From: a virus
Taxonomy: Duplodnaviria > Heunggongvirae > Uroviricota > Caudoviricetes
Virus record (IMG/VR): IMGVR_UViG_3300028991_000014
Location: 1-10,615 of that record
DNA: 10,615 bases
Strand: one strand, 5' to 3'
Shown one piece after another: positions 146-10,414 of the stretch (position 1 is its first letter; each line of letters opens with the position of its first letter). Under the pieces are notes generated by a model, which saw only the letters and a list, made by a program, of their open reading frames with translations, was not told where the DNA came from and ran no database searches. The position numbers were made by a program, and so were the translations under genes.

Positions 146-179
146 AGCCGGAGCAATCCGGCTTTTTGTAATTTTTTGT
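146..179 (+). terminator. intrinsic terminator downstream of the partial upstream ORF
   Basis: Stem AGCCGGA (146-152) / TCCGGCT (157-163) with GCAA loop, followed by TTTTGTAATTTTTTGT (164-179). Confidence 0.55.
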
Positions 180-291
180 AAATTATTTGTTCGTGGTCGT
201 TCCACGTTGTTCATTGACCGGATCGGCATATTTTACCCGCCCTGAATCATGATTATTCTCGCCAGTGGTGCCAGGACGCTGGGGCCACTTT

Positions 292-333
292 CCCGCCTGT
301 TAATGTGCTCACCAATATTCATTACCAGGCGGG
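292..333. promoter_or_regulatory. 14-bp inverted repeat with 14-bp spacer upstream of the capsid gene (operator or RNA-structure candidate)
   Basis: CCCGCCTGTTAATG (292-305) and CATTACCAGGCGGG (320-333) are reverse complements with one mismatch. No T-run follows on either strand, so it is not a simple terminator. Confidence 0.3.
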
Positions 334-389
334 AAAACGATCGGTGCGATTGCTGATTTCCTTATGAAAAACGGTTGAGTTTTTGCCGC

Positions 390-4645: not shown

Positions 4646-4768
4646 TGAGGCAGCCGGACGGGGTGGGGGGAGTTTTCAGGACGAACCCGACCCCGCCCAG
4701 AACCGACCGCCTCCCCAAATTTTTATGCACGGTAATTTTTTGAAAAATAATCTGGCGAAAAAATAAGC
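4646..4768. other. candidate cos (cohesive-end / terminase recognition) region
   Basis: Non-coding gap between the HNH region and terS with a G-run GGACGGGGTGGGGGGAG (4656-4672) followed by C-runs CCCGACCCCGCCC (4686-4698) and CGCCTCCCC (4708-4716). Position matches where HNH-dependent cos phages carry cos. Confidence 0.4.
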
Positions 4769-6770: not shown

Positions 6771-6783
6771 TGAGGTCAGCAGC

Positions 6784-7065
6784 ATGACAGAAGCCGAAAT
6801 ACTGCGATTAATCCGCCGCGTCTCTGGAATCAGCCAGCAGCATGACGAACAGGCCACGCAGCCGGACAGCGTGACCGCCGAAAATTATGCGCGTGTTGTT
6901 GCTGAGGTGATGCGCCGTGATGGTATCCAGCTTAATGATGTGGATATGCGCAACATACGGATCCGCGTTCTTGAAATGCTGGCCTACCGTCGCCGCGTGC
7001 AGACGTACAGGGAAAAAGCAAAAATTACGTACCACTGGAAGAAGCCGGAGCGGTTACGGCGGTAA
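6784..7065 (+). CDS. hypothetical protein (93 aa), last gene of the element
   Basis: ORF with GAGG SD about 8 nt upstream of ATG 6784; basic C-terminus (KKPERLRR); no recognisable family. Its stop abuts the first copy of a 28-bp direct repeat. Confidence 0.45.
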   Translation: MTEAEILRLIRRVSGISQQHDEQATQPDSVTAENYARVVAEVMRRDGIQLNDVDMRNIRIRVLEMLAYRRRVQTYREKAKITYHWKKPERLRR

Positions 7066-7070
7066 CTGGT

Positions 7071-7098
7071 TGAACTTAAAGCAAAGCGCAAAATTGCG
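7071..7098. repeat. 28-bp direct repeat, copy 1 (TGAACTTAAAGCAAAGCGCAAAATTGCG)
   Basis: Identical 28-mer recurs at 7290-7317; flanking bases are also partly similar (CGGTTAC...CTGGTTG). Confidence 0.8.
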
Positions 7099-7111
7099 TT
7101 GGCTGGTGGGT

Positions 7112-7131
7112 GAGTTGCAGATCTGCAACTC
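7112..7131. repeat. perfect 20-bp palindrome GAGTTGCAGATCTGCAACTC
   Basis: Exact self-complementarity read directly from the sequence. It lies between the two direct-repeat copies, together with further hairpins at 7203-7225 (8-bp stem CGATACCC/GGGTATCG) and 7263-7276 (GGCGGAATTCCGCC). Confidence 0.8.
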
Positions 7132-7289
7132 GACCATGAAATTACGGAAAATACCCGTAGTTTGGGTAGTAAGAGTAACACCCAGATTTTGGGGCTTACT
7201 CGCGATACCCAAATAAAGGGTATCGGTGGAAGAAATATCGTTTCTCATATGTGAGTACCGAGGGCGGAATTCCGCCTTCGGTTACTCGC

Positions 7290-7317
7290 TGAACTTAAAG
7301 CAAAGCGCAAAATTGCG
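7290..7317. repeat. 28-bp direct repeat, copy 2
   Basis: Identical to 7071-7098. Confidence 0.8.
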
Positions 7318-7644
7318 CTGATTACTGGTTGGAATTGTTCCAGAGTGCAAATTTACACTATGGCCTAACCCGTTGATATTTCCGGCAACCTCAATTTGAG
7401 GAGGCAGGGAACATCCCCTAAATCCGGTGATGTATTCGGCCCCTTTAACGGGTATTACGATAATCATAACACCTACCGAACAGGTAAAGGCCACCAGCCT
7501 GATTAACGTTTAACCGGAAAAAAAGCCAGGTATCCAATCTCGATATGTGGATCCCCATATCGACAGCAATGCCCCCTTAAAATTATCCGCCTTTATATTT
7601 CTTGTGCCTATTTGTTCCACGTTGTTTCATACAGTGCGCCGAAC

Positions 7645-7668
7645 GGTGTAGTCACTGGTGTAGTCATT
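7645..7668. repeat. tandem 12-bp direct repeats GGTGTAGTCACT / GGTGTAGTCATT near the element end
   Basis: Two adjacent near-identical units about 75 bp from the junction with tqsA. Candidate recombinase arm-type or regulator binding sites (inference). Confidence 0.5.
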
Positions 7669-7712
7669 TTGCGATTTTTGGCACTTTTTGTGGTGCAAAT
7701 TATTTAATTAAA

Positions 7713-7877
7713 TCAATGTGTTAAGTGAAATAAGTTATATATAACAGCAATAAATAATGCGAGAATAAACGGCACGATGATCTCGGCGGCAAAACGGATA
7801 CCGCAGAGAATAATGACCAGCATTCCCAACATAATGACGATTTTTAGGCCATTGAGCGTGATGATCGGCTTTGCCAT
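7713..7877 (-). pseudogene. tqsA: tqsA (ydgG) 5' fragment truncated by the element insertion
   Basis: Minus-strand translation from ATG 7877 gives [46 protein letters not shown], which matches the TqsA N-terminus as recalled. The frame then diverges into AT-rich element DNA (YNLFHLTH, stop at 7713-7715). Divergent from mdtJ as in E. coli. Confidence 0.7.
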
Positions 7878-10105: not shown

Positions 10106-10414
10106 TTACGCTGCGGGTTGTGCAGCAGGTTTTGCCGGTTGCTGATGGCTGTGTTTCCCGGCGTGTTTCTTCGCTGCCTGCGCTTTTTGTTCAGGGGCTT
10201 TCTGTTCAGCTTTCGTATTTTTATGATGCTTTTTAGCCGCCTGCGCTTTCTGGGCAGGTGCTGCTTTATGCTGTTTTTTATGATGTGTCGTTTTCGCCGG
10301 CGCTGCTTTGGTGGTCGTCGCAGTCGGAGCAGGTGTGGTCGCAGTCTCTGCAGCAAAGGCGGCAGAAGACAGACCCATAGCAGCGGCAACAACCAGAGCT
10401 AATACTTTTTTCAT
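10106..10414 (-). CDS. asr: acid shock protein Asr
   Basis: 102-aa product [23 protein letters not shown]... with signal peptide and Lys/Ala/His-rich repeats, matching E. coli Asr as recalled. Start chosen at ATG 10414 (GAGGG SD 7 nt upstream) rather than the track's 10441. Confidence 0.9.

What the first reader, a model, noticed from the sequence alone, without database searches (positions are those of the whole stretch)
7066..7330. Palindrome-dense 190-bp segment bracketed by identical 28-bp direct repeats downstream of the last element gene
TGAACTTAAAGCAAAGCGCAAAATTGCG occurs at 7071-7098 and again at 7290-7317. Between the copies lie a perfect 20-bp palindrome (7112-7131), nested stems AGTAAG/CTTACT around CCCA/TGGG, an 8-bp stem CGATACCC/GGGTATCG (7203-7225) and the palindrome GGCGGAATTCCGCC (7263-7276). 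Track ORFs on the minus strand here (7054-7248, 7282-7494) merely echo the repeat and are unlikely to be genes. Possible roles are a structured non-coding RNA, a protein-binding array (recombination or regulation), or a small duplicated cassette. None can be decided from sequence alone.
Basis: seen in the sequence. Interest (0 to 1): 0.6.

Follow-up and report, generated by a model that had tools for sequence, protein, structure and literature searches.

The report
Hairpin-repeat mosaic at a satellite's end
The repeats and palindromes are real, but they are not a self-contained cassette: they are one arrangement of a variable, dispensable patchwork of small hairpin modules that fills the untranslated stretch between the last gene and the integration site of E. 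coli phage satellites (PICIs), and its function is still unproven.

Summary
Observation confirmed to the base. The window is the right end of a capsid-forming phage-inducible chromosomal island (cf-PICI) inserted next to tqsA/mdtJI. The segment lies just after the last gene (orf93, 6784-7065) and about 330-580 bp before the integrase arm sites (7645-7666).

The two 28-nt repeats are two copies (R1, R2) of a repeat unit found 0-7 times, always co-oriented, downstream of orf93 in 89 distinct PICI right ends. Each unit has a head matching the IHF consensus and, about 10 nt on, a short hairpin whose stem covaries. R1 and R2 carry degenerate heads.

The 180 nt between them is a separate six-hairpin module. 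It stays about 91-92% identical where neighbouring orf93 third codon positions are only 65-72% identical. It occurs in four PICI packaging types, is usually not followed by a second repeat, and is absent from 13 of 24 cf-PICI right ends.

It is therefore not cos, not attP, not a MITE and not an Rfam family. No phage record matches it.

Best guess, at low confidence: a REP/BIME-like tail of the late operon that ends or stabilises the transcript, with IHF-binding units, kept mosaic by recombination. Covariation, strand bias and promoter scans do not decide between RNA and DNA roles.

The parts
6784..7065 (+). orf93, the last gene of the island (93 aa, function unknown). Its stop codon lies inside the first repeat-unit head.
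   Evidence: PHROG phrog_1561, E = 1.4e-56, with no Pfam match. 74 protein variants at 68-100% identity sit in the same position in all PICI types. AlphaFold2 gives three helices at pLDDT 68, with no fold match.
7059..7107 (+). Repeat unit R1: a degenerate IHF-like head (GGTAACTGGTTGAAC) followed by the hairpin GCGCA-AAAT-TGCG. It contains copy 1 of the 28-mer (7071-7098).
   Evidence: A sequence profile built only from units of other PICIs matches it over its full length, E = 8.4e-6. The repeat itself is reported.
7102..7109 (+). Chi site (GCTGGTGG) in the tail of R1, immediately before hairpin B.
   Evidence: The same position holds Chi in 27 of 89 right ends.
7112..7131 (.). Hairpin B: a perfect 20-bp palindrome centred on GATC.
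   Evidence: It is found exactly in 67 IMG/VR loci, and a 79%-identical copy shows one compensatory change.
7143..7168 (+). Hairpin C: two mutually exclusive 5-bp stems (TACGG/CCGTA or TACCC/GGGTA).
   Evidence: This is the least conserved part, with 9-nt deletions in some copies.
7168..7200 (+). Hairpin D: AGTAAG/CTTACT enclosing CCCA/TGGG.
   Evidence: It is disrupted in the 79%-identical copy L259.
7203..7225 (.). Hairpin E: an 8-bp stem with a 7-nt loop.
   Evidence: Compensatory changes C-G to T-A and A-T to C-G are seen in variants.
7231..7245 (+). Hairpin F: the weak stem AGAAA/TTTCT.
   Evidence: An A-T to G.T change occurs in L259.
7253..7287 (+). Hairpin G: the strongest stem, -30.6 kcal/mol on + and -23.5 on -. 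In the commonest arrangement elsewhere it is followed by TACTTATTGT, which looks like an intrinsic terminator. Here R2 has replaced that tail.
7279..7331 (+). Repeat unit R2: a further degenerated head (GGTTACTCGCTGAAC) followed by the hairpin AGCGCA-AAAT-TGCGCT. It contains copy 2 of the 28-mer (7290-7317).
   Evidence: The profile matches only its hairpin half, E = 0.013. On the minus strand it looks like a weak terminator.
7340..7363 (.). Hairpin H: a decayed copy of a 24-bp palindrome that is perfect in L001 and L002.
7364..7408 (+). Repeat unit U3: an intact unit with a perfect IHF consensus (TATCAACGGGTTA, minus strand, 7366-7378) and the hairpin CCTCA-ATT-TGAGG.
   Evidence: Profile match E = 3.9e-13; IHF pattern match.
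7491..7498 (-). Chi site in a conserved module close to attP.
   Evidence: There are 69 such minus-orientation Chi sites in the 89 right ends, mostly 300-600 nt past the orf93 stop.
7540..7563 (.). Hairpin L: a near-palindrome centred on GATC.
7645..7666 (+). Doubled motif GGTGTAGTCA-CT-GGTGTAGTCA, the arm-type site of attP. It marks where the recombination site begins.
   Evidence: The same doubled motif lies on both arms of attP in the circular PICI record L258. PMC10111431 places it 81 +/- 2 bp upstream of the attP centre.
7711..7723 (+). IHF consensus next to the attR core, in the opposite orientation to the unit heads.
   Evidence: Forward-orientation hits occur 40 times against 3.5 expected across the right ends; in the examples printed they lie 646-912 nt past the orf93 stop.

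Best explanation
The segment is part of a PICI-specific extragenic hairpin mosaic. It occupies the untranslated tail of the late (capsid and packaging) operon, between orf93 and attP.

Shown:
- The two 28-nt repeats are two copies of a repeat unit, made of a head resembling an IHF site plus a short hairpin whose stem covaries.
- Elsewhere this unit occurs in co-oriented arrays of 0-7 copies.
- The 180 nt between the repeats is an independent, unusually conserved six-hairpin module.
- Both components are optional and are shuffled among islands with different packaging genes.

Inferred:
- The mosaic works as REP/BIME elements do at the ends of chromosomal operons.
- When the late operon is transcribed, the hairpins (G above all) would stop or pause RNA polymerase.
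- They would also protect the 3' end of the long mRNA.
- Transcription would thereby be kept from running across attP into int, or into host genes when the island is integrated.
- Intact unit heads would bind IHF and bend the DNA.
- The repeated heads, hairpins and Chi sites make the region recombine readily. That would account for the duplication seen here and for the exchange of late-gene modules between islands.
For: - Context: this is the cf-PICI gene set, with orf93 as the last gene.
- Unit family: a profile built from other islands finds U3 (E = 4e-13), R1 (E = 8e-6) and half of R2 (E = 0.013) in the window and nothing else. In other loci the units form multi-copy arrays on a single strand.
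- Heads: the IHF consensus occurs 146 times against 3.7 expected, in one orientation. Variable positions in the heads fall on the consensus N positions.
- Hairpin: it lies at a fixed distance from the head, the loop is 3 or 4 nt, and pair levels 3 and 5 covary (GC 23, TA 17, CG 5, AT 3 at level 3).
- Module conservation: about 91-92% identity where orf93 third codon positions are 65-72% identical. In L004 the module is 98.9% identical while the whole 6783-7286 stretch, which includes it, is 86%.
- Persistence: hairpins B, E, F and G survive in a 79%-identical copy that sits between convergent genes.
- Terminator-like form: hairpin G plus a T-rich tail scores as a plus-strand terminator in the commonest arrangement. 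No sigma-70-like promoter was found ahead of or inside the module; the nearest plus-strand one is downstream at 7352-7380.
- Strand: within the finding's span the plus strand folds better, -97 against -80 kcal/mol summed over the hairpins.
- Position: the orf93-to-arm spacer is always non-coding and varies from 369 to 1122 nt.
Against: - There are no transcript data of any kind.
- Only 10 of 39 right ends have a canonical plus-strand intrinsic terminator, while 27 of 39 have minus-strand terminator-like sites.
- Over all hairpins, G.T and A.C mismatches are balanced, 15 against 18, so there is no general sign of selection on a plus-strand RNA.
- RNAalifold gives no covariation credit for the module: the covariation term is +0.74, with 2 compensatory pairs out of 57.
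- In this window the T-rich tail after hairpin G has been replaced by R2.
- R1 and R2 have degenerate IHF heads.
- Units and module are both absent from many apparently intact islands, so any function is non-essential.
- The high conservation of the module could reflect recent horizontal spread rather than constraint. The correlation between its divergence and that of orf93 is only 0.15.
Confidence: 0.4

Rival explanations
1. It is a DNA-level architectural array. IHF bound to the co-oriented unit heads bends and compacts the DNA beside attP. This would assist the integrase/AlpA complex, or packaging or replication. The hairpins would be incidental, or would serve as cruciform or flexible elements.
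For: The IHF consensus is about 40-fold enriched and strictly co-oriented. A separate IHF consensus lies at the attR core. The array always lies on the arm side of attP. The hairpin apex is an A/T tract flanked by flexible CA/TG steps. Stem mismatches show no strand bias, as expected for a DNA-level feature.
Against: attP as defined by the doubled arm motif and the TTGTTCG repeats spans only about 300 bp, and the units begin 200-700 bp beyond it. Copy number runs from 0 to 7 within one packaging type. The loop is 3 or 4 nt long, which fits a folded single strand better than a fixed duplex site. R1 and R2 in this segment do not match the consensus. The A/T tract lies 3 bp further from the core than in the lambda H' site (my own reading of the sequence against the published H' site).
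Confidence: 0.2
2. The 180-nt module is an accessory non-coding RNA gene carried as cargo, for example a regulatory or anti-phage/anti-defence RNA. It would be made either from the 3' end of the late transcript or from the minus strand.
For: The fold is strong (z about -9). The module is conserved well above neighbouring synonymous sites. It is optional and moves between islands like cargo. It sits where cargo such as an Abi gene is inserted. A minus-strand promoter-like site lies at 7610-7582, and R2 and R1 look like weak minus-strand terminators. Hairpins to the right of R2 fold better on the minus strand.
Against: There is no Rfam match even at E <= 10. No sigma-70-like promoter lies next to or inside the module. 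The sigma-54-like match at 7103-7120 does not keep its spacing in variants (alignment). Covariation support is lacking. Hairpins C and D are not kept in the divergent copy. Truncated forms ending after hairpin D or E are common.
Confidence: 0.15
3. It has no function of its own. The spacer would be a graveyard of recombination scars, duplicated gene-end fragments and leftover terminators of lost cargo, tolerated because nothing essential lies there.
For: The mosaicism is extreme: 34 different module orders among 89 right ends. Spacer length varies from 369 to 1122 nt. Some islands of every type lack both units and module. Type-1 heads repeat the last codons of orf93 (CGG CGG TAA), as expected for local duplication. 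IS elements and deletions are seen in the spacer.
Against: Heads keep the consensus positions while the N positions drift. Stems are kept by compensatory change. The module is far more conserved than adjacent synonymous sites. Orientation is invariant.
Confidence: 0.2
4. It is the packaging (cos or pac) site of the capsid-forming island, recognised by its own TerS/TerL/HNH.
For: It lies just downstream of terL and orf93. It contains direct repeats and IHF-like boxes, as lambda cosB does. It is flanked by Chi sites that face inwards.
Against: 13 of 24 cf-PICI right ends lack the module entirely, and 6 of 24 have no units. The identical sequence occurs in islands with other packaging systems, including Rpp-type islands whose lambda-like cosN lies elsewhere. 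There is no lambda cosN in the window. In HK97-type HNH-dependent systems cos lies upstream of terS (established knowledge, not tested here).
Confidence: 0.02
5. It is a small mobile insertion (MITE-like, or an integrated cassette) whose insertion duplicated the 28-53-nt target.
For: The layout is direct repeats flanking an insert. 'Empty' sites with a single repeat exist in L003 and L005.
Against: The module has no terminal inverted repeats. The same module is preceded by homologous but diverged sequence in all contexts and usually has no second repeat. The flanks of the single-repeat loci differ, so they are not precise empty sites. Matches in E. coli genomes are few per genome (median 1, at most 6), and every locus inspected was a PICI right end. 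No phage record matches.
Confidence: 0.03

Closest known systems
REP/BIME elements of enterobacteria, especially BIME-1 (RIP/RIB: an IHF site between palindromic units)
   Same: Both are extragenic and lie just after the last gene of an operon. Both are mosaics of short imperfect palindromes interleaved with conserved linkers that carry an IHF consensus. In both, copy number varies by local duplication and deletion, and the elements are dispensable.
   Different: There is no REP consensus here. The palindromes differ in sequence from unit to unit. All units point the same way, rather than alternating. The family is confined to PICI right ends instead of being spread in hundreds of chromosomal copies.
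Lambda sib/tI retroregulator and other hairpins placed beside attP
   Same: Both are stable hairpins in untranslated DNA next to the phage attachment site, so their linkage to neighbouring genes changes on integration.
   Different: In lambda, sib lies downstream of int and acts on int mRNA through RNase III. Here int is transcribed away from attP and the hairpins follow the late operon. No RNase III evidence exists.
IHF sites in lambda cosB (I1) and in the attP arms (H1, H2, H')
   Same: The unit heads carry the same consensus, WATCARNNNNTTR. One classical site lies at the attR core in this window (7711-7723).
   Different: The units lie outside the roughly 300-bp attP and are absent from many islands. 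They are not tied to any packaging type.
Capsid-forming PICIs (EcCIEDL933 type) and Rpp-type E. coli PICIs (EcCICFT073)
   Same: The window is such an island, and the gene order matches the published descriptions.
   Different: The papers I could search and read do not describe this non-coding spacer or orf93.

Membership tests
Rfam RNA families | A match to a curated covariance model at its gathering score. | tested here: not met
   There were no matches at gathering thresholds over the whole window. The best permissive hits were tfoR (E = 0.35) and SSRC10 (E = 1.4), far below their thresholds.
REP/BIME | The REP palindromic-unit consensus (...CTTATCMGGCCTAC). | tested here: not met
   The region has no match with up to 3 mismatches. 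The only window hit is at 1386-1399, at chance level.
REP/BIME | Extragenic, at the 3' end of an operon, as a mosaic of palindromes with linker motifs that include an IHF site. | tested here: met
REP/BIME | Dispersed in many copies around the chromosome. | tested here: not met
   The median is 1 place per genome and the maximum 6, and every locus inspected was a PICI right end. Multi-unit arrays were found only in PICI-like loci.
Intrinsic (Rho-independent) terminator | A G+C-rich hairpin followed directly by a T run on the transcribed strand. | tested here: inconclusive
   No plus-strand site lies within 7066-7330. Weak minus-strand sites occur at R2 and hairpin C. Hairpin G followed by TACTTATTGT qualifies in the commonest arrangement elsewhere.
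IHF binding site | The consensus WATCARNNNNTTR. | tested here: inconclusive
   The match is perfect in U3 (7366-7378) and in 146 unit heads elsewhere. R1 and R2 have 2 and 3 mismatches. Binding was not tested.
Lambda-type cos site | The cosN sequence GGGCGGCGACCT. | tested here: not met
   The window has no match with fewer than 3 mismatches, which is chance level. Exact cosN is found elsewhere in the Rpp-type loci L003 and L004.
Packaging site of the cf-PICI | Present in every functional island that has the same terminase. | tested here: not met
   13 of 24 cf-PICI right ends lack the module, and 6 of 24 lack units.
attP arm of the PICI integrase | Contains the arm-type repeats and lies within about 150 bp of the crossover. 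| tested here: not met
   The arm motif is at 7645-7666, and the segment ends 315 bp before it.
MITE or insertion with target duplication | Terminal inverted repeats, precise empty sites, and copies at unrelated loci. | tested here: not met
Integron attC | RYYYAAC and GTTRRRY core sites at opposite ends of an imperfect palindrome, with an IntI integrase nearby. | tested here: not met
   GCCTAAC-like and GTTGA motifs do occur, but they lie 2-3 nt apart at one end of the unit. No IntI gene is present.
Type III toxin-antitoxin RNA repeats / CRISPR-like arrays | Near-identical tandem repeats next to a toxin or cas gene. | tested here: not met
   The units are degenerate and irregularly spaced, at 48-144 nt. 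No such gene is present.
Protein-coding gene (minus-strand ORFs 7054-7248 and 7282-7494) | A family match, a conserved start, and protein-like substitution. | tested here: not met
   There is no PHROG hit. The C-terminus changes with context, and stem-compensating changes cause runs of amino-acid changes.

The most novel reading that the evidence does not exclude
E. coli phage satellites carry a previously undescribed class of non-coding elements with two components. The first is a repeat unit made of an IHF box plus a covarying hairpin, forming arrays beside attP. Together with the Chi sites, these arrays would act as the recombination landing pad through which islands swap whole late-gene (capsid and packaging) modules. 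The second is a conserved, roughly 180-nt, six-hairpin RNA carried as cargo that acts in trans, for instance against helper phage or host defence.
Probability: 0.15. Interest if true: 0.7.

Novelty: new variant of a known kind. Interest (0 to 1): 0.38.

Why it matters
PICIs are studied for how they hijack phages and spread virulence and defence genes. How they exchange packaging modules is still open (PMC10111431 proposes capture of late genes from prophages). This work shows that four packaging types share one constant right flank, made of orf93 plus a hairpin and IHF-box spacer. Parts of that flank are 100% identical between islands at different chromosomal sites. That gives a concrete candidate for the right-hand recombination anchor. 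It also gives people who engineer PICIs as delivery vehicles a defined set of elements to delete or keep. If the module proves to be an RNA, it would be a new satellite-borne regulator. If nothing happens on deletion, up to about 1 kb of spacer can be freed for cargo, which matters for size-limited cos packaging.

Tried and rejected
- Rfam at gathering and permissive thresholds found nothing usable. ARAGORN found no tRNA or tmRNA.
- Lambda cosN is absent.
- The phage collection has no match. The plasmid collection holds only five records, of which the one inspected is a circular PICI.
- A literature search for three of the sequences returned no paper. The cf-PICI, Rpp, EcCIMP1 and HE-PICI papers do not mention the region.
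- CsrA sponge: 8 GGA in 495 nt, about the 1-in-64 random rate (my arithmetic), and 7 TCC, so no strand bias.
- Sigma-54 promoter at 7103-7120: the GG-N10-GC spacing is not kept in variants (alignment).
- Sigma-70 promoter for the module: none found.
- Minus-strand ORF as a gene: rejected.
- orf93 function: AlphaFold2 gave pLDDT 68. There was no significant match against the BFVD viral structure library, and the PDB sequence search gave E = 1.1 at best.
- Resemblances recalled from memory were treated as leads only: the PurR box (half-sites match, spacing is wrong), P1 parS boxB, the P2 cox-box, the phiX174/pC194 nick site TTGATATT, and the E. coli CRISPR repeat. None fits in spacing or context, and no cognate gene is present.
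- A search of one genome per species with the orf93 protein returned only one locus, in Shigella, so no cross-genus test of the hairpins was possible.
- A degenerate unit pattern scanned over IMG/VR found arrays only in isolate-derived (PICI-like) loci.

Full report
**Observation.**
- The 28-mer occurs at 7071-7098 and 7290-7317. About 8e-10 such pairs are expected by chance in 10.6 kb. It is the core of a 53-nt repeat at 83% identity (7060-7112 / 7279-7331).
- Between the copies lie six hairpins, which I call B to G:
  - B: 7112-7131, a perfect 20-bp palindrome
  - C: 7143-7168
  - D: 7168-7200
  - E: 7203-7225
  - F: 7231-7245
  - G: 7253-7287
- The 276-nt stretch folds nine standard deviations better than dinucleotide shuffles on either strand, at -115.5 kcal/mol on + and -99.2 on -.

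**Context.**
- Pfam and RefSeq annotation of near-identical E. coli loci show that the window is the right half of a capsid-forming phage-inducible chromosomal island.
- The gene order is capsid, prohead protease, portal, head closure, connector, HNH, small ORF, P27-type TerS and TerL, then a 93-aa gene of unknown function (orf93, 6784-7065, phrog_1561).
- The island is inserted beside a tqsA remnant, followed by mdtJI, ydgD and asr.
- The segment is therefore the first 265 nt of the non-coding stretch after the last gene.
- A circular PICI record (NZ_CP148328.1, L258) defines attP for this integrase family. It has a doubled GGTGTAGTYA motif on each arm plus TTGTTCG repeats, about 300 bp in all. 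PMC10111431 places that doubled motif 81 +/- 2 bp from the attP centre.
- In the window the motif is at 7645-7666, so the finding ends 315 bp before attP begins.

**The same right end serves different islands.**
- The sequence 7050-7340 is 100% identical in an island of another type in O157:H7 PV15-279. That island has terS plus a capsid-like gene and sits between cspD and clpS.
- orf93 followed by related spacers also closes Rpp-type islands, whose lambda-like cosN sites lie elsewhere.
- It also closes a type with a protease-capsid fusion and DUF1441, and a helper-embedded island inside a prophage capsid gene.
- The window has no lambda cosN.
- No phage record matches the spacer.

**What the 28-nt repeats are.**
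- I collected 89 distinct sequences downstream of orf93 from E. coli genomes and IMG/VR. Reading them showed tandem, co-oriented arrays of a degenerate unit of 50-100 nt.
- Each unit starts with a head of the form TAAC-NNN-YTGAT-ATT. There are two sub-types, GCGGTAAC..., which copies the orf93 stop context, and GCCTAACCC...; in L110 they alternate along the array.
- About 10 nt after the head comes a short hairpin with consensus S-C-N-C-A / AAAT, ATT or AAAA / T-G-N'-G-S'. Pair levels 3 and 5 covary, and the loop is 3 or 4 nt.
- The head is the reverse complement of the IHF consensus WATCARNNNNTTR. That consensus occurs 146 times in this orientation in 82 kb, against 3.7 expected. Positions that vary between heads fall on the consensus N positions.
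- A sequence profile built from 23 units of other islands, none of the 'TTAAAGCA' type, finds exactly three places in the window:
  - U3, 7364-7408, E = 3.9e-13
  - R1, 7059-7107, full length, E = 8.4e-6
  - the hairpin half of R2, 7302-7322, E = 0.013
- The 'identical direct repeats' are thus two members of this family. Their heads are degenerate (TTGAAC in place of TTGATA).
- In other loci the profile finds arrays of up to four or five units, always on one strand.

**What lies between the repeats.**
- Hairpins B to G form a separate module.
  - Most often (24 distinct right ends) it follows a single unit and has no second repeat.
  - It also occurs truncated after D or E, duplicated, or with a G-like hairpin placed before B.
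  - Only 3 of 89 right ends have the R1-module-R2 layout.
- Its presence is independent of packaging type.
  - Among cf-PICIs, 13 lack it, 5 carry hairpin B but not G, and 6 carry both.
  - Rpp-type islands split 11, 6 and 5 in the same way.
- Units number 0-7 within each type.
- The spacer from the orf93 stop to the arm motif is 369-1122 nt, median 630.
- The module is strikingly conserved.
  - In pairs of islands whose orf93 third positions are only 65-72% identical, it stays about 91-92% identical.
  - In L004 it is 98.9% identical, while the whole 6783-7286 stretch, which includes it, is 86%.
- A 79%-identical copy in L259 keeps hairpins B, E, F and G, through one compensatory change and some wobble changes. 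It loses C and D.
- E shows C-G to T-A and A-T to C-G compensation in other variants.

**What it is not.**
- It is not an Rfam family, a tRNA or tmRNA, or REP.
- It is not cos or pac, because it is dispensable within one terminase type and shared across types.
- It is not attP.
- It is not a MITE or a cassette with target duplication. It has no inverted termini and no precise empty sites, and it was found only at PICI right ends.
- It is not a coding region.
- It is not a CsrA sponge.
- It is not a sigma-54 promoter, since the spacing is not conserved.

**RNA or DNA?** The evidence is mixed.
- For an RNA on the plus strand:
  - The module follows the late operon in the same orientation, and no promoter of its own was found ahead of or inside it.
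  - Within the finding's span the plus strand folds better, -97 against -80 kcal/mol summed over the hairpins.
  - Hairpin G, at -30.6 kcal/mol, is followed by a T-rich tail in the commonest arrangement and then scores as a terminator.
  - The unit loop length varies between 3 and 4 nt, which suits a folded single strand.
- Against:
  - Over 137 distinct hairpins, G.T and A.C mismatches are 15 against 18.
  - RNAalifold finds 2 compensatory pairs of 57 and gives no covariation bonus.
  - Canonical plus-strand terminators occur in only 10 of 39 right ends.
  - Hairpins to the right of R2 fold better on the minus strand. A promoter-like site (7610-7582) and weak terminator-like sites at R2 and hairpin C also lie on that strand.
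- No transcript data were available to me.

**Most likely mechanism (confidence about 0.4).**
- The spacer is a PICI-specific counterpart of chromosomal REP/BIME mosaics. It is an untranslated operon tail made of hairpins that end, pause or stabilise the late transcript.
- It would thereby insulate attP, int and flanking host genes, with interleaved IHF-binding units.
- Its repeats and Chi sites make it recombine often.
- The structure, family membership, distribution and dispensability are shown. Transcript ending, IHF binding and the recombination role are inferred.
- Rival explanations:
  - a purely DNA-level IHF architecture: 0.2
  - an accessory RNA gene: 0.15
  - non-functional scars: 0.2
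  - cos: 0.02
  - a mobile insertion: 0.03

**Novelty and interest.**
- PICIs, cf-PICIs, REP/BIME elements and IHF sites are all known.
- In the papers I could search, I found no description of this unit family, of the six-hairpin module, or of their role as a constant right flank.
- I rate it a new variant of a known kind. It is of moderate interest to people who work on satellites, and of low general interest until a function is shown.

Noticed in passing
window 1675, 2042, 2170, 3174, 3619, 6398, 7102, 7491: There are eight Chi sites (GCTGGTGG), all inside the island and none in the 2.9 kb of chromosome. Shuffles predict 0.36, and roughly 1.7 would be expected at the E. coli genome average. 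The island encodes no obvious RecBCD inhibitor in this window, so Chi may protect its linear or rolling-circle DNA. 69 minus-orientation Chi sites, mostly 300-600 nt past the orf93 stop, occur in the 89 right ends.
   Followed up: partly
window 179-211 and 7594-7628; L258 10663-10689 and 95-111: TTGTTC(G/C) repeats occur both just upstream of the capsid gene and in both arms of attP. One DNA-binding protein, with AlpA an obvious candidate, might control both late-operon expression and excision. The motif also recalls the P4 alpha iteron TGTTCACC (from memory).
   Followed up: partly
window 289-336: A 17-nt inverted repeat at 94% complementarity, with a 14-nt spacer (TTTCCCGCCTGTTAATG / CATTACCAGGCGGGAAA), lies just before the capsid gene. 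It could be a terminator or an operator of the late operon.
   Followed up: no
L001 12085-12366: In the closest relative of this island (E. coli 88_1577), orf93 carries an internal stop codon and is annotated as a pseudogene, so orf93 may itself be dispensable.
   Followed up: no
L005 4500-4640; also L196, L208, L220: Alternative spacer modules carry four GTGAC repeats about 11 nt apart, followed by a canonical plus-strand terminator (TGACGTGGCCAACGTCATTTTTT). This window lacks that module.
   Followed up: no
L259 2758-3519: A helper-embedded PICI, inserted in a lambdoid major capsid gene, carries an abortive-infection family gene on the opposite strand right after a 79%-identical copy of the hairpin module. 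This shows that the spacer is also a cargo insertion zone.
   Followed up: partly
L181, about 70 nt after the orf93 stop: Sequence resembling the end and first ORF of an IS3-family insertion sequence (judged by eye, not searched) begins one base after the hairpin of the first repeat unit.
   Followed up: no
L030, about 300-345 nt after the orf93 stop: Hairpin B stands alone there, followed by four tandem copies of an 11-nt repeat (GCATGTATTGCA...). The hairpins therefore behave as separate modules.
   Followed up: no
window 10155-10304: There are 57- to 63-nt direct repeats on the minus strand inside asr. They correspond to the known repetitive Asr protein and are unrelated to the island.
   Followed up: no
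window 4646-4768: A 123-bp gap lies between the small ORF after HNH and terS. By analogy with HK97-type phages, this is where the island's own cos site would be expected. It was not examined.
   Followed up: no
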